Below are positions 48,032-51,639 of a DNA stretch of 64,000 bases, piece by piece (within the stretch, counting starts at the first letter, position 1; each line of letters begins with the position of its first letter). The position numbers were made by a program, and so were the translations under genes. Origin of the DNA: Thermoplasmata archaeon (GTDB lineage: Archaea > Thermoplasmatota > Thermoplasmata > Lutacidiplasmatales > UBA184). Location of the stretch: NCBI GenBank assembly GCA_022750335.1, contig JAKIVX010000003.1, positions 18,840 through 82,839 of the forward strand, given 5' to 3'. The notes under the pieces were generated by a model. The model was given only the letters and a program-made list of their open reading frames with translations, was not told the origin of the DNA and made no database searches.

Positions 48032-48221
48032 GACCGACCGAGACGAGCCGATTACATAGCGGTGGGGCGGGTCCGGCGCAGGTGGGGCCGTCCGAATTTG
48101 AATCGGAGTCTCTTGCACCCCAAGCAAGAAGGATGGTCCAAGCTACCCCACGGCCCCGAACCGCGCCGGCGGCGCGCCGACCCGACCTAGTTAGATAATG
48201 ATTGCTTGGGCGCCCCGCCCG

Positions 48222-48404: not shown

Positions 48405-48448
48405 GCACTCCGCGCCGGAACGACCCGAACGGGGTTCTTATGGCTTCG

Positions 48449-48457
48449 GTTCGAGCC
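48449..48457. repeat. Left copy of the 9-bp direct repeat GTTCGAGCC flanking the tnpB element (TSD-like)
   Basis: Exact 9-mer repeated at 49935-49943. Each copy is 3 nt outside the inverted 12-mer. Confidence 0.55.
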
Positions 48458-49934
48458 TGCTTTGGGATTTTATTCCCGAAGAAGGAGTTGATGCAGGGCA
48501 CCGCTTCCCCCATCGTTCACGTTCCACCGGGTGCGAAAGGTTCGTGGCACTGTCTCTCCATTCCGATAATGAGGGCCCGCGACGCGCCCTCGTTGTCCCC
48601 CTCGGCCCCCTACGGGCAAAGCGACCCGTCCAGGACCCCATCGAAGGGGAACCCGAAGGCACCGAGCTCAACCCAACCAACCCTGCAGTGCGGGGACTCA
48701 TGGCCGACTTTCGTCTCCTGGTCAATGTGTGCCTGCGCGAGTTCTTGACGAGCGGAGTCACGTCGAGGGCGAAGATATCGCGATTAGCCCGAACTAGAGC
48801 GATCGAGTCGAGGGTGACCGGAACGATCGGGCTGGCCGCGGCGGACATCGCTCGCTCGCTCGCTGCGGGACACCGACGCCGAGTTCGAGAGGGAAGGGTC
48901 CCTCGAGTTCCCTACGTTCGAACTCCTTTCGTCCGAGTTCCCGAGGAGTCCTTTCACTTTGACCTCGAAACCGGGAAGCTCCGGTTGTCCGTGCGTCCTG
49001 GGGAGTGGACTTCTCTGACCCTACCCGTTTCCAACTACCTTCGGTCCGCTCTGAATCGTCCCGATCGTCGGGTCACTCAGGTGCATATTGGGTTGAATCG
49101 AGTCGTGTTCATCTGCGCCCAGACCCCGGCCCGCCCGTACACCCCGACTTCGTTGGTCGCCCTCGACACGAACGAGTCCTCCCTCGACGGTGTGGAGGTG
49201 GAAAGTGATCGTGCGACGTTCGTCCGGATCGCCTTCCCGGAGATTCGGGAGATCCAGTTCCGTCACGTCTGTCGCCGTCAGTATCTCGGGAATAAGAAGG
49301 CGCACGATCGACGGCTCTCACGCCAGCTTCTAGGGCGGGAGGGTGCCCGAGAGCGGAACCGGATCCGCTCCCGACTCCACGACCTAACTCGCTCCTTGGT
49401 CGACCAGCTCGCGAAGCATCGGGCGGTCCTCGCGCTCGAGGACTTGACCGGTCTCCCTCGACCTCGGGGGAGGTCGGTGAAGGGGGGACCGCGTCGGGCC
49501 GGTTCGAGGAGCTTTCGTCGGCGACTCTCCAACTGGCCGCAGGGGGAGCTCCACCGACAGCTCCTCTACAAGGCTGAGGATCGGGGGTCCCGATTGTCTG
49601 GCTCAATCCCTATCGTACGTCCAAAATCTGCCCGAGATGTGGTGAAGTTTCGGAACACCGAAGAAGGGTGGGGACTAGGTTCGACTGCAGGAAGTGTGGG
49701 TGGTCCTTGGACCGCCAACTGAATGCGGGTCTGAACCTGGGCATAGCTGCTCTGCGGAGAACTGCGGAGCTTGGGGGTCTTCGACTTGATCCCGACGCCC
49801 TTTCCAAGGAGTTGGTGATGCCCCTCTTCGGGTTGGTCAACGGCCGACCCGCACGGGCGGAGCGGACGGGAAGGGAACGATTTGACTCGAAGGGACGCCC
49901 GAATGGGTAGGTCTTCGAGTAAAATCCCAAAACC
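48458..49934 (+). mobile_element. 1.48-kb insertion-sequence-like element carrying only a tnpB (OrfB) gene, bounded by imperfect terminal inverted repeats
   Basis: TTTGGGATTTTA (48461-48472) and its exact reverse complement TAAAATCCCAAA (49920-49931). The similarity extends inward (TTC..GAAGA). Flanked by identical 9-mers. Inserted between two co-oriented minus-strand genes. Confidence 0.65.
48700..49910 (+). pseudogene. tnpB: TnpB/OrfB-family RuvC nuclease (IS200/IS605-IS1341 type), interrupted by a -1 frameshift at a G5 run (49583-49587)
   Basis: Frame A (to 49587) contains 'LVALDTNE' and 'VLALEDL'. The frame of ORF 49668..49910, read from 49587, gives 'VPIVWLNPYRTSKICPRCGEVSEHRRRVGTRFDCRKCGWSLDRQLNAGLNLG' (zinc ribbon plus third RuvC Asp). 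The N-terminal start (ATG 48700) is uncertain. Confidence 0.8.
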
Positions 49935-49943
49935 GTTCGAGCC
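49935..49943. repeat. Right copy of the 9-bp direct repeat GTTCGAGCC
   Basis: Identical to 48449-48457. Confidence 0.55.
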
Positions 49944-49947
49944 CCGT

Positions 49948-50655
49948 CTAGGCCGCGAACCACGGGAGACGAGCGGCCGGACCGGTCGGCTTCAGCACGA
50001 GCAGGTGCAGGTTGGCCCCCGGGTCGCCGGGAGCGTACGAATCCCGGAGCGCGAGCTGATAGAGGAGGAACAGGGCGTCCTCGTCCGAGCCGACCCCGAG
50101 CGAGCGCTGCACGTCGATCCCGAACCGGTGCTTCAAGTGGACGAGCATCTCCTCGAAGTCGACCGGGGTCGAGCCGTCGGACGACTGCGCGCGACGGAAG
50201 AGGCCGACCACGACCCCGGTCGCGACCCGGAGGACCTCCTTCGGAGGAACCGACCGGAGGTGGAAGTGGGGCGGCGGGTTGGCTCGTGCCTCGTTCGGCA
50301 CGACGAGGATCGACACCTCGTGGTCGATGGTCGAGCCGGGCGCGCGGGACAGCCGCGCCCACGCCGCCTCTGCCGCGGTGTCGTTCGGCACGACGAAGAT
50401 CGCACGACGGGTTTGGGGGGTCCCCCGGACCACCTCGACCCAGCGGTCGATCCCTGCATCCACCTCGCCGCGGGCTCCCGGGACGTACACGGGGAAGGTT
50501 CGGCGGGGTACGCCGGATTCCTGGACCCAGAAGGACGCCTCGGTGATCGGCTCACGCCGGGTGGGAACCACCCGGGAATACCCCATGCGCTTCAGTACAT
50601 TTTCGGCGTCGCGAGCGTGCTCGCCCGCGGCTCCGACCCGGCCGGAGTCTGACAT
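49948..50655 (-). CDS. Hypothetical protein (no family recognised)
   Basis: 235-aa ORF with globular-looking sequence. The N-terminal part 'AENVLKRMGYSRV...FWVQE...FPVYV' faintly recalls restriction-endonuclease-like folds, but no catalytic motif can be asserted. Confidence 0.55.
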   Translation of the reverse strand: MSDSGRVGAAGEHARDAENVLKRMGYSRVVPTRREPITEASFWVQESGVPRRTFPVYVPGARGEVDAGIDRWVEVVRGTPQTRRAIFVVPNDTAAEAAWARLSRAPGSTIDHEVSILVVPNEARANPPPHFHLRSVPPKEVLRVATGVVVGLFRRAQSSDGSTPVDFEEMLVHLKHRFGIDVQRSLGVGSDEDALFLLYQLALRDSYAPGDPGANLHLLVLKPTGPAARLPWFAA

Positions 50656-50721: not shown

Positions 50722-51639
50722 CTACGGGCGCGGTCCCACGCCCAGATGGAGGAGCGGGGCGTTCAGGACGAGGGCGACCACGATCCCGAGAAGGTACGGT
50801 CCGGAGTAGATGAACCCCCGGCGGGCCCGGCGGGGGGTCACCTCCGTCCAGAGGGGGGCCGTGAACACGACAAAGAAGGCCCCCAGCGCGAGGATCGCGA
50901 CCGCGACCGGCCAGGCGATGGTGCCGAGCAGGATGACGAGGACGGCGGCCGGAAGGAGGAGCGCGGCCGAGACGACCACGACGCGGGCGGAAAAGGCGAC
51001 GTCGTCCATCCGGGGCAGCATCGGTAGTCCCGCCCGGGCATAATCATCCTTCAGGAGGAGCGCGAGGCTCCAGAAGTGCGGGGGCGTCCACAGGAAGACG
51101 AGCAGGGCGAACGCGAGCACGCCCGGGGTCCAGTGGCCCACGGCGGCCGCGCCTCCCGCGAGGGCGGGAGCGCTCCCCGCGAAGCCCCCGATGACGATGT
51201 TCCAGCTCGACCGTGGTTTCAGCCATGCGGTGTAAACGACCACGTAGGTCAGGGCGCCCGCGAGGATCGAGATCCCGGTGAGCGGGTTGAGCGTGAGCGC
51301 GGCTCCGCCCACGCCGAGTGCGACGAAGAGGAGTCCGACGGCGGCCGCGGTCCGAGGGAGCACCCGGTCCGCCGCAAGCGGCCGGCTCCGGGTCCGCTTC
51401 ATGGCCCGGTCGCGGTCCCGCTCGAGGTAGTGGTTCAACATCCCGGAGCCGGCCGACGCGAGCGCTCCGAACCCGACCACCAGGCCGAGTCGGAGCCAAT
51501 CGATGTTCGACGGGTCGGCGAGGAAGAACCCGCCCACCGCGACAAGACAGATCAACAGCGTGATGCCGGGCTTGGCGAGCGTCCACCAGTCGCGGAGCGG
51601 GGAGCGGGGGGCGGCGGTTGCTTCGGCCGGAGACGACAC
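50722..51639 (-). CDS. ctaB: Protoheme IX farnesyltransferase (heme O synthase)
   Basis: UbiA-family polytopic protein. 'LKPGITLL', 'NHYLERDRDRAMKRTRSRPL' (NxxxDxxxD-type motif), 'YTAWLKPRS'. Confidence 0.9.
   Translation of the reverse strand: MSSPAEATAAPRSPLRDWWTLAKPGITLLICLVAVGGFFLADPSNIDWLRLGLVVGFGALASAGSGMLNHYLERDRDRAMKRTRSRPLAADRVLPRTAAAVGLLFVALGVGGAALTLNPLTGISILAGALTYVVVYTAWLKPRSSWNIVIGGFAGSAPALAGGAAAVGHWTPGVLAFALLVFLWTPPHFWSLALLLKDDYARAGLPMLPRMDDVAFSARVVVVSAALLLPAAVLVILLGTIAWPVAVAILALGAFFVVFTAPLWTEVTPRRARRGFIYSGPYLLGIVVALVLNAPLLHLGVGPRP

What the first reader, a model, noticed from the sequence alone, without database searches (positions are those of the whole stretch)
48449..49943. 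tnpB-only element bounded by inverted repeats and a perfect 9-bp direct repeat, not IS200/IS605 architecture
Seen in sequence:
- GTTCGAGCC occurs at 48449-48457 and again at 49935-49943.
- Exactly 3 nt inside each copy lie TTTGGGATTTTA (48461-48472) and its perfect reverse complement TAAAATCCCAAA (49920-49931).
- The inverted similarity continues inward (left TTTGGGATTTTATTCCCGAAGA; right, reverse-complemented, TTTGGGATTTTACTC--GAAGA).
- The 1477 bp between the direct repeats encode a single protein with TnpB hallmarks: RuvC-like 'VALDTNE', 'LALEDL', 'DRQLNAGLNLG', and zinc ribbon CPRCG...CRKCG.

Established knowledge: IS200/IS605-type tnpB elements are moved by a Y1 TnpA as single-stranded circles, have subterminal hairpins rather than terminal inverted repeats, and create no target duplication. 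Terminal inverted repeats plus a 9-bp duplication are the footprint of DDE-type cut/copy-and-paste transposition (for example IS4-family elements).

Inference: this is either a tnpB gene riding in a non-autonomous TIR element mobilised in trans by an unlinked DDE transposase, or a tnpB element class with undescribed ends. Either would be an unusual prokaryotic TnpB association.
Basis: partly seen in the sequence, partly recalled or inferred. Interest (0 to 1): 0.7.

Follow-up and report, generated by a model that had tools for sequence, protein, structure and literature searches.

The report
Solo-TnpB transposon targeting archaeal promoters
This is a decayed copy of a small mobile element from a Thermoplasmata archaeon that carries only an RNA-guided nuclease (TnpB) and its guide RNA, yet moves like a classical cut-and-paste transposon (inverted ends, 9-bp target duplication) and, with all its relatives, always lands at the upstream edge of a host gene promoter.

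Summary
Syntenic contigs from relatives whose neighbour protein is 97% identical lack the element and carry exactly one GTTCGAGCC. So window 48458-49934 (1,477 bp) is an insertion with a true 9-bp target-site duplication (TSD) and ~24-nt imperfect terminal inverted repeats (TIRs).

Its only gene is a TnpB. In this copy the gene is broken by a 1-nt deletion and probably a damaged start. The last ~190 nt form a guide-RNA (omegaRNA) scaffold strongly supported by covariation, and it ends in the right TIR.

The architecture holds across the family. Of 29 unique Thermoplasmata solo-TnpB loci, 17 match at 8 or 9 of 9 TSD positions; a separate unbiased scan added five more perfect TSDs. Four TIR subtypes occur. 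In 812 permuted controls, one pair reached 8/9.

No transposase lies inside or next to any copy, so movement by an unlinked DDE-type enzyme is the most likely explanation. This is unproven.

One finding is new. Nearly every insertion sits 15-16 bp from a canonical archaeal TATA box plus BRE (the transcription-factor-B recognition element). This promoter is always on the tnpB-5' side and points away from the element; the right flank shows nothing comparable.

TnpB inside inverted-repeat, DDE-linked transposons has been reported as rare (Altae-Tran 2023). I rate this a new variant of a known kind, with high interest.

The parts
48435..48442 (-). Host TATA box (box A) of the divergent 60-aa gene (48404-48222). 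It pre-exists in the empty site and is not part of the element.
   Evidence: Present in the empty sites L217-L220. The equivalent position is 93-100% A/T across 28 independent insertions and reads TTTAWATA on the minus strand.
48443..48448 (-). BRE-like host promoter segment (minus strand CGAAGC), lying between the TATA box and the duplicated target.
   Evidence: Logos. The same S-S/A-rich pattern precedes the TATA boxes of other genes in this window.
48449..48457 (.). Left copy of the 9-bp target-site duplication, GTTCGAGCC.
   Evidence: It is present as a single copy in the empty sites.
48458..48482 (+). Left terminal inverted repeat, TGCTTTGGGATTTTATTCCCGAAGA.
   Evidence: (I10). It is conserved at the left end of all TTTGGGAT-type relatives.
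48511..48526 (+). Conserved non-coding motif CAyCGTTCAy..TTyCA in the 5' leader. Its function is unknown.
   Evidence: Alignment of 19 left ends.
48569..49910 (+). tnpB pseudogene. The canonical start ATG (48569-71) is out of frame with the conserved N-terminus (GPRRALVVPL). The internal ATG at 48700 is the start of the 403-aa relatives. Stop codon TAG at 49908-10.
   Evidence: Pfam PF07282 E=1.2e-16; NCBIfam guided_TnpB 93.8 bits; Thermoplasmata homologs at 80-38% identity. An AlphaFold2 model of the intact relative P0005 matches Cas12f/TnpB.
49583..49588 (+). Frameshift site: a 1-nt deletion (GGGG-GTCCCG against GGGG[C/T]GTCCCG in relatives). It separates RuvC-I/II from the Zn ribbon and RuvC-III.
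   Evidence: The same truncated 439-aa ORF (P0001) is recorded on 3 contigs, and two independent assemblies fetched here (L007, L009) also call it.
49749..49934 (+). omegaRNA (reRNA) scaffold. It overlaps the 3' end of tnpB and ends at the element terminus.
   Evidence: RNAalifold on 25 right ends: 40 pairs, 17 with compensatory changes. Pair counting: 97.6% of cells paired; 111 compensatory cells against 32.5 in shuffles and at most 18 in slid controls.
49911..49934 (-). Right terminal inverted repeat (reverse complement GGTTTTGGGATTTTACTCGAAGAC). Its UCCC pairs with an upstream GGGA inside the omegaRNA.
   Evidence: helix 8.
49935..49943 (.). Right copy of the 9-bp target-site duplication. 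It is also the first 9 nt of the predicted omegaRNA guide.
49935..49954 (+). Predicted guide segment: read-through of the omegaRNA into the TSD plus right flank. This is inferred, not shown.
   Evidence: Inferred from the position of the scaffold end and the established TnpB/omegaRNA architecture.

Best explanation
Window 48458-49934 is a 1,477-bp non-autonomous insertion sequence of a Thermoplasmata archaeon.

Shown:
- It has ~24-nt imperfect terminal inverted repeats and a genuine 9-bp target-site duplication.
- It carries only a TnpB RNA-guided nuclease gene, decayed in this copy, and a structured omegaRNA. The 3' end of that RNA is the right inverted repeat.
- It belongs to a clade of solo-TnpB elements (1.25-1.5 kb, four TIR subtypes beginning (T/G)GCTTTG or GGTTCTG). 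They all show the same architecture.
- All sit 15-16 bp from the TATA box of a host promoter (TATA, then a 6-7-nt BRE, then the TSD). The promoter is always on the tnpB-5' side and points away from the element.

Inferred:
- Integration uses cuts staggered by 9 bp, that is, DDE-type chemistry.
- The enzyme is most likely a transposase encoded elsewhere that recognises the GGCTTTG-type ends. From memory, these ends and the 9-bp duplication resemble the IS903 group of the IS5 family.
- The integration machinery reads the promoter, or the TBP/TFB complex bound to it. This gives a safe landing site between genes.
- TnpB and the omegaRNA play their usual selfish role. The guide (TSD plus right flank) directs cleavage of an emptied site, so that a still-occupied chromosome copy restores the element by homologous repair.
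For: - Empty sites with one TSD copy occur in syntenic contigs whose neighbour protein is 97% identical.
- TIR and TSD are replicated in many independent insertions; 11 loci at 9/9, 6 at 8/9, 1 at 7/9 out of 29; permuted control 0 at 9/9 and 1 at 8/9 of 812. One search adds five more perfect cases by an unbiased scan.
- The protein is a full-length TnpB/Cas12f fold with invariant D-E-D and CxxC..CxxC residues.
- The omegaRNA shows covariation.
- There is no room for another gene, and no neighbouring gene recurs.
- One-sided TATA/BRE signal: 100% A/T at position -19 and 93% at -20 in 28 junctions, with no signal in 32 right flanks.
- Divergent host ORF starts lie 40-63 nt away in 18 of 28 loci.
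- The same promoter architecture occurs upstream of other genes in the window.
- The literature reports inverted terminal repeats for DDE-associated TnpBs and trans-mobilised solo TnpBs (PMC10691335).
Against: - No partner transposase and no second TIR-bounded unit of any other kind turned up in about 840 kb of related DNA or in the 64-kb window.
- TIR subtype co-varies with TnpB subclade, and the right TIR is part of the omegaRNA. This fits co-evolution with TnpB itself at least as well as with several unseen transposases.
- Strict orientation specificity (no insertion in the opposite orientation among 28 unique left junctions) is unusual for a symmetric TIR transpososome.
- The host sequence just 5' of the TSD is only weakly conserved (T in 64% at the best position). 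A strict TAM (the short motif TnpB needs beside its target) is therefore not evident.
- The closest copies at different sites are only 90-92% identical, so recent mobility is not shown.
- The IS903 resemblance rests on my memory of its inverted repeat, not on a test.
Confidence: 0.6

Rival explanations
1. Autonomous TnpB-only transposon. The RuvC (RNase-H-fold) active site of this TnpB clade, perhaps with the omegaRNA recognising the ends, itself cuts the TIRs and inserts the element with a 9-bp stagger. No other transposase would be needed.
For: - The whole clade (80 loci kept of 168 matches) is solo TnpB with intact TIR and TSD.
- No partner gene and no extra TIR copies were found.
- TIR subtype co-varies with TnpB subclade, and the right TIR is paired inside the omegaRNA.
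- Catalytic residues are invariant.
- Directional insertion at a fixed distance from a DNA motif resembles the way TnpB/Cas12 proteins read a TAM.
Against: - No TnpB or Cas12 is known to catalyse strand transfer.
- The model of P0005 is an ordinary Cas12f/TnpB fold with no extra domain.
- The geometry does not fit known TnpB cuts, which fall 15-21 nt from the TAM. Here the TSD spans +7 to +15 from the TATA, or +1 to +9 from the BRE complement.
- The absence of a partner rests on a small sample of each genome.
Confidence: 0.1
2. The element is moved by another kind of staggered-cut integrase supplied in trans, not by a classical DDE IS transposase. Candidates include a Cas1-like casposase-type enzyme or an undescribed archaeal integrase tethered to TFB/TBP.
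For: - One-sided, orientation-specific targeting next to BRE/TATA suggests a protein that reads promoter polarity.
- Asgard Cas1-TnpB units flanked by repeats are reported (PMC10691335).
Against: - Casposon and Cas1 integrations give duplications of about 14-15 bp or of repeat length (established knowledge), not 9 bp.
- No such gene lies near any copy.
- Short GG-initiated TIRs with a 9-bp TSD are typical of DDE insertion sequences.
Confidence: 0.1
3. Integration is essentially random or only AT-biased. On this view the promoter-edge position and the orientation reflect survival: only such insertions are harmless and expressed.
For: - In the window the element sits in a 54-nt intergenic gap, 4 nt after one gene's stop codon and just upstream of the next gene's BRE. 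This is a position that spares both genes.
Against: - The spacing is fixed to within about 1 nt in about 30 independent sites and four TIR subtypes.
- The signal is strictly one-sided, and no copy has the opposite orientation.
- Neutral intergenic positions at other distances, and dead-end copies in the other orientation, should also survive but are not seen.
Confidence: 0.12
4. This is an ordinary IS200/IS605 (IS1341-type) element moved as single-stranded DNA by a Y1 TnpA. On this view the inverted and direct repeats are incidental.
For: - Source annotations call the relatives 'IS605 OrfB family transposase'.
- A hairpin can form near the right end (I19).
Against: - The empty site shows a true 9-bp duplication.
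- The duplicated sequences differ at every locus.
- The ends are inverted repeats.
- No conserved 4-5-nt target abuts the left end.
- IS200/IS605 elements have neither TIRs nor TSDs (PMC3119063, PMC13565253).
Confidence: 0.02
5. This is a domesticated, immobile TnpB locus that regulates the adjacent promoter, analogous to TnpB-derived regulators.
For: - It always lies next to a promoter.
Against: - Close relatives show presence/absence polymorphism.
- The flanks are different at every locus.
- The window copy is a pseudogene.
- Catalytic residues are conserved rather than inactivated.
Confidence: 0.03

Closest known systems
IS1341-group solo-tnpB elements of the IS200/IS605 family
   Same: A single tnpB gene of about 400-450 aa. 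The omegaRNA overlaps the 3' end of the gene and ends at the right terminus. Such elements are abundant, diverged and low in copy number in archaea.
   Different: Those elements have subterminal hairpins, no TIRs and no TSD, and they insert 3' of a fixed 4-5-nt motif. This element has TIRs and a 9-bp TSD of variable sequence, and a promoter 15-16 bp away.
DDE-transposase-associated TnpB branches (DDE-1 to DDE-6, for example IS630-linked) and solo TnpBs with the same ends (Altae-Tran et al. 2023, PMC10691335)
   Same: TnpB sits inside symmetric inverted terminal repeats, with its 3' end within 250 bp of the transposon end. Trans-mobilisation of solo copies has been proposed for them.
   Different: No member of this clade examined (80 loci) carries or neighbours a DDE gene. 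The TSD is 9 bp; IS630 gives TA and the ISL2/IS1031 groups give 2-3 bp (both from memory). Promoter-edge targeting is not mentioned in the passages of that paper I read. I could not check whether this clade is one of their branches, because no supplement was available.
Fanzor-carrying eukaryotic TIR/TSD DNA transposons (Bao & Jurka 2013, PMC3627910; PMC10530073)
   Same: A TnpB-family nuclease is a passenger in transposons with TIRs and TSDs, and the guide is read across the transposon end into the flank.
   Different: Those elements are eukaryotic or viral, usually encode or are clearly related to a known transposase superfamily, and their proteins are larger.
IS903 group of the IS5 family (recalled from memory, not tested)
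   Same: A 9-bp TSD, and a terminal repeat beginning GGCTTTG (IS903: GGCTTTGTTGAATAAATCG as I recall it).
   Different: IS903 encodes its own DDE transposase and is bacterial. It is not known to target promoters or to carry TnpB.
Mobile insertion cassettes (MICs): IS-type inverted repeats flanking passenger genes with no transposase (own knowledge)
   Same: TIRs plus a TSD around a non-transposase gene, with presumed trans-mobilisation.
   Different: MICs share their ends with an identifiable autonomous IS in the same genome. No such partner is known here, and the passenger is itself a mobile-element nuclease with its guide RNA built into one end.
Transposons that target the transcription machinery (yeast Ty3 at Pol III start sites, Tf1 at Pol II promoters; own knowledge)
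   Same: Integration at a fixed short distance from a promoter element, giving a gene-sparing 'safe haven'.
   Different: Those are eukaryotic LTR retrotransposons tethered by known protein contacts. I found no archaeal or bacterial equivalent in the literature searches.

Membership tests
TnpB (OMEGA RNA-guided nuclease) | C-terminal TNB/zinc-ribbon domain (Pfam PF07282) and the TnpB profile | tested here: met
   PF07282 E=1.2e-16, 61 bits against a cut-off of 26.3. NCBIfam guided_TnpB scores 93.8 bits, just under its cut-off of 100, for the frameshift-joined query. A family profile hits Cas12f/TnpB chains at E=1e-16.
TnpB (OMEGA RNA-guided nuclease) | RuvC D-E-D catalytic triad and a CxxC...CxxC zinc finger | tested here: met
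   D199, E290, D381 and C354/C357/C373/C376 are invariant in 38 relatives. The window encodes VALDTNE, LALEDL, DRQLNAG and CPRCG..CRKCG, but split across two frames.
TnpB (OMEGA RNA-guided nuclease) | WED-REC-RuvC-TNB fold | tested here: met
   AlphaFold2 model of the intact relative P0005: pLDDT 81, pTM 0.67. Foldseek full-length matches to AsCas12f (E=3e-15, TM 0.58-0.61), ISDra2 TnpB 8h1j (E=1e-11) and Fanzor2.
TnpB (OMEGA RNA-guided nuclease) | Structured omegaRNA at the 3' end of the gene, ending at the element terminus | tested here: met
   40 pairs, 17 with compensatory changes. 97.6% of cells paired; 0 of 500 shuffles reach the observed values; slid controls are far lower. No Rfam family matches.
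TnpB (OMEGA RNA-guided nuclease) | RNA-guided, TAM-dependent DNA cleavage | not testable with these tools
   This needs biochemistry. The window copy is frameshifted and probably inactive.
IS200/IS605 transposon (including the IS1341 group) | No terminal inverted repeats; subterminal hairpins instead | tested here: not met
   TIRs of 15-25 nt occur in all subtypes.
IS200/IS605 transposon (including the IS1341 group) | No target-site duplication | tested here: not met
   A 9-bp TSD is proven by the empty site and recurs across loci.
IS200/IS605 transposon (including the IS1341 group) | Insertion immediately 3' of a conserved 4-5-nt target/TAM abutting the left end | tested here: not met
   The 9 nt abutting the left end are the variable TSD. 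The conserved motif (TATA) lies 15-16 nt away.
IS200/IS605 transposon (including the IS1341 group) | Y1 (HUH) TnpA in cis or in trans | tested here: inconclusive
   None lies in cis, and no neighbouring gene recurs. Presence in trans elsewhere in the genomes could not be searched.
IS607 | Serine-recombinase TnpA; no TIR and no TSD | tested here: not met
   TIRs and a TSD are present, and there is no adjacent gene. The protein does score higher on the IS607_TnpB model (53.7 bits) than on IS200_TnpB (28.7 bits), both far below their cut-offs.
DDE-type TIR insertion sequence (for example IS5/IS903, IS4) | Terminal inverted repeats | tested here: met
DDE-type TIR insertion sequence (for example IS5/IS903, IS4) | Fixed-length target-site duplication of variable sequence | tested here: met
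   9 bp in a fixed register.
DDE-type TIR insertion sequence (for example IS5/IS903, IS4) | DDE transposase gene between the repeats | tested here: not met
   Elements of 1.25-1.5 kb are filled by tnpB and the omegaRNA. At best the element is therefore a non-autonomous derivative.
DDE-type TIR insertion sequence (for example IS5/IS903, IS4) | An autonomous partner with the same TIRs in the same genomes | tested here: inconclusive
   None appears in the window or in about 840 kb of related loci.
DDE-associated TnpB branches of Altae-Tran 2023 | A DDE transposase adjacent to tnpB in at least some clade members | tested here: not met
   No recurrent neighbour appears in 80 loci. Membership of one of their named branches is not testable here.

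The most novel reading that the evidence does not exclude
This Thermoplasmata clade may be a self-sufficient TnpB-only transposon. On this reading the RNase-H-fold RuvC nuclease, together with its omegaRNA (whose 3' end is the inverted repeat), performs DDE-like cutting and joining. It would integrate directionally at the upstream edge of TFB/TBP-bound promoters. That would be a new transposition mechanism and the first promoter-tethered transposon in archaea.
Probability: 0.1. Interest if true: 0.95.

Novelty: new variant of a known kind. Interest (0 to 1): 0.72.

Why it matters
TnpB is the ancestor of Cas12 and one of the most abundant prokaryotic genes. Its life cycle is understood only within IS200/IS605 and IS607 elements, which move without scars.

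This finding shows a whole archaeal clade of TnpB/omegaRNA units with classical TIR/TSD ends and no transposase of their own. That bears on two open questions:
- How 'solo' TnpBs move. This has been open since the IS1341 elements were described.
- How TnpB's homing role adapts to transposons that duplicate their target. This is the situation of eukaryotic Fanzors.

The strict, one-sided placement 15-16 bp from the TATA box, at the BRE edge, would be the first case I know of in archaea of a transposon that reads core promoter architecture. It suggests an experimentally tractable tether (TBP/TFB, or bent DNA). It also points to compact, TAM-flexible nucleases with a defined scaffold of about 190 nt.

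Tried and rejected
- **Genome-collection scan for the TIR** (GCTTTGGGATNTTAT). Fourteen specified bases were too few. A whole-genome search for a partner transposase was therefore not possible.
- **Viral-contig scan with the family profile.** No relatives were found.
- **Rfam.** No known RNA family covers the element.
- **Exact-protein look-up of the right neighbour.** All four contigs carry the element or break inside it. Empty sites appeared only through 91-97% identical homologues.
- **TATA box as part of the element, with the direct repeat as an internal segment.** Rejected, because the TATA, BRE and one repeat copy pre-exist in the empty site.
- **TATA or BRE complement as the TnpB TAM, with TnpB making the staggered cut.** The distances do not fit known TnpB cleavage positions. 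The bases next to the TSD are only 50-64% conserved.
- **Longer subterminal inverted repeats.** None is consistent beyond about 25 nt.
- **A recurrent neighbouring gene as a cis partner.** None was found.
- **Recent copies.** The closest copies at different sites are 90-92% identical.
- **Supplementary tables of PMC10691335**, to place the clade. They are not held.
- **Literature searches for TATA- or BRE-targeting insertion sequences.** Nothing relevant turned up.
Full report
**1. The observation**

GTTCGAGCC lies at 48449-57 and 49935-43. TTTGGGATTTTA lies at 48461-72 and its reverse complement at 49920-31, each 3 nt inside a direct repeat. The 12-mer occurs nowhere else in the window, even with 2 mismatches. 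The 9-mer on its own is unremarkable: 4 copies against 1.7 expected.

The 1,477 bp between the repeats hold one TnpB-like reading frame. It has to be joined across a frameshift. Compared with three relatives, the window lacks one base at 49587/8. The conserved start (GTG/ATG-GAy-CCC-CGN-CGN = MDPRR) is also out of frame here. The same truncated ORF (P0001) is recorded on three contigs, and two independent assemblies fetched here also call it. A decayed copy is therefore more likely than a sequencing error.

**2. The protein and the RNA**

- Pfam PF07282 (Cas12f1-like TNB) scores E=1e-16, and NCBIfam guided_TnpB scores 94 bits.
- 185 homologues were found. Those with a source name are Thermoplasmata MAGs; lengths run from about 270 aa (partial) to about 580 aa, typically 400-450.
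- The D-E-D and four-Cys residues are invariant in 38 of them.
- An AlphaFold2 model of the intact relative P0005 (pLDDT 81) superposes over its full length on AsCas12f, ISDra2 TnpB and Fanzor2. It has no additional domain.
- The last ~190 nt of the element form a conserved RNA structure. Of 40 pairs, 17 show compensatory changes. 97.6% of cells are paired, and 0 of 500 shuffles reach the observed values; slid controls collapse.
- This structure overlaps the C-terminal coding region. Its final helix pairs the UCCC of the right inverted repeat.

This is an omegaRNA scaffold whose guide would be read from the flank, starting with the duplicated 9-mer.

**3. The ends are real, and the direct repeat is a target-site duplication**

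Three relatives fetched by exact-protein look-up (L001, L004, L006) have the same termini, TGCTTTGGGAT...ATCCCAAAGCC. Each has its own flanking direct repeat.

A metagenome scan added 80 loci. I compared the 9 nt left of the element with the 9 nt right of it in a fixed register, across 29 unique loci:

| Matches of 9 | Loci |
|---|---|
| 9/9 | 11 |
| 8/9 | 6 |
| 7/9 | 1 |

In 812 permuted pairs, none reached 9/9 and one reached 8/9. An unbiased scan for 9-mer direct repeats flanking any inverted repeat recovered these elements and five more perfect cases. It found no other kind of element.

More distant TnpBs (38-47% identity) carry different TIRs (TGCTTTGAAxC, TGCTTTGCACCTAAAGTC, GGTTCTGTAACA). 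They share the same 9-bp duplication and the same size of 1.25-1.5 kb.

The empty site is the decisive evidence. Homologues of the right-hand neighbour protein at 97, 93 and 91% identity lie in syntenic contigs (COX1-CtaA-UbiA-235aa-60aa-FtsJ) without the element. L217-L220 read ...CCTAGGCGG|GGCTCGAAC|CGAAGCCATAAGAACCCC..., which is right flank, one copy of the 9-mer, then left flank. The element is therefore exactly 48458-49934.

**4. What it is not**

IS200/IS605 elements (including IS1341) and IS607 elements have neither TIRs nor TSDs (PMC3119063, PMC13565253, PMC6188088). Those defining features fail here. The protein is a TnpB, but the transposon is not of those families.

**5. No transposase**

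The elements have no room for a second gene. No neighbouring gene recurs among the loci. No further copies of the TIRs occur in the window or in about 840 kb of related DNA.

TIRs plus a fixed 9-bp duplication of variable sequence are the signature of staggered-cut, DDE-type transposition (established knowledge). So the most economical explanation is mobilisation in trans.

Altae-Tran et al. 2023 report six DDE-associated TnpB branches with inverted terminal repeats. They also report solo TnpBs with the same ends. A 2026 review lists ISL2, IS630 and IS1031 partners. As I recall it, the GGCTTTG terminus with a 9-bp TSD resembles IS903 of the IS5 family. This is a lead, not a test.

The closest copies at different sites are only 90-92% identical. 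Twelve contigs break inside the gene, as expected for a repeated or polymorphic element.

**6. An unexpected target rule**

I aligned 28 unique left junctions on the element start.

- Positions -23 to -16 are a TATA box. A/T is 1.00 at -19 and 0.93 at -20, against a background of about 0.3. The box reads TTTAWATA on the minus strand, which is the canonical archaeal box A.
- Positions -15 to -10 read cRAAGsC on the minus strand, which is BRE-like.
- The TSD occupies -9 to -1.
- The 32 right flanks show no such signal.

In 18 of 28 loci a minus-strand ORF starts 40-63 nt from the element. This matches leaderless or short-leader genes transcribed away from the element. Other genes in the window have the same S-S/A-rich-then-TATA architecture.

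In the window's empty site the TATA and BRE belong to the 60-aa gene. The element landed in a 54-nt gap, 4 nt after the stop codon of the upstream gene. So the promoter is a feature of the target, not part of the element.

The rule holds in all four TIR subtypes. There are two informative exceptions:
- L178 is inserted against the right end of another family member.
- L136 lies beside a tRNA-like 3' end, with no TATA and no TSD.

Spacing fixed to about 1 nt and complete orientation bias argue for directed integration rather than survival bias. How a near-symmetric TIR element reads promoter polarity remains unexplained.

**7. Mechanism proposed**

Shown:
- TIR/TSD insertion.
- A solo TnpB with its omegaRNA.
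- Placement at the promoter edge.
- Presence/absence polymorphism between close relatives.

Inferred:
- A trans-acting DDE-type transposase makes the 9-bp staggered cut at the upstream border of the BRE.
- The omegaRNA reads through the right TIR into the TSD plus flank.
- When a chromosome copy loses the element, TnpB cuts the restored target, and an occupied copy repairs it. This is the homing model for TnpB.

The left junction shares only 9 nt with the guide, and the right junction lacks the promoter-side context. Self-cleavage should therefore be avoided.

I considered and rejected a TnpB-made cut as the source of the duplication, because the distances do not fit known cleavage positions. 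However, an autonomous TnpB transposon is not excluded. The TIRs co-vary with the TnpB subclades, and the right TIR lies inside the omegaRNA.

**8. Verdict**

The element is a new variant of a known but rare kind (TnpB in TIR/TSD transposons). It has two unexplained properties of real interest: no transposase across a whole clade, and one-sided integration at archaeal core promoters.

Noticed in passing
window 48081-48157 (-): ARAGORN calls a tRNA-Pro(GGG), and the sequence looks like a normal archaeal tRNA. Yet Rfam cmscan reported no tRNA hit there, even at E<=10. This tool discrepancy is unexplained.
   Followed up: partly
L178 660-712: One family member (TGCTTTGAAACC type) is inserted directly against the right end of another (…TTTCATCCCAAAGCC|CGCCGGAGA|TGCTTTGAAACC…). 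Its TSD is the first 9 nt of what would be the resident element's guide region, and no host TATA is present.
   Followed up: partly
L136 9700-9760: A family member lies immediately after a tRNA-like 3' end (GGGGGTTCAAATCCCCC). It has no TATA box and no TSD, and its 92%-identical relative L140 has a displaced 7-nt repeat. These may reflect rearrangement or an alternative target.
   Followed up: no
window 48511-48526, and the same position in 18 relatives: A conserved non-coding motif, CAyCGTTCAy..TTyCA, lies about 55-75 nt inside the left end, upstream of the conserved GTG/ATG start. Its function is unknown; it could be a promoter element, part of the leader, or a protein-binding site.
   Followed up: partly
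L141, L143, L152, L153, L155-L158, L160, L161, L165, L172; also L008: Many metagenome contigs end inside the tnpB gene, at roughly residues 295-360 of the query. This is typical of assembly breaks at a repeated or strain-variable element.
   Followed up: no
L131: This contig joins the left junction of the L001 insertion to the right junction of the L004 insertion. It appears to be an assembly chimera between two copies in one genome.
   Followed up: partly
window 50291-50310 and 50381-50400: A 20-nt near-perfect direct repeat, spaced 90 nt apart, lies inside the right-hand neighbour gene (235 aa, no Pfam domain) (D1).
   Followed up: no
window 50722-51639 and syntenic loci L007, L211, L213: The element sits beside a conserved aerobic-respiration cluster (cytochrome b, COX1, CtaA, UbiA/CtaB). 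This marks the host as an aerobic Thermoplasmata lineage.
   Followed up: no
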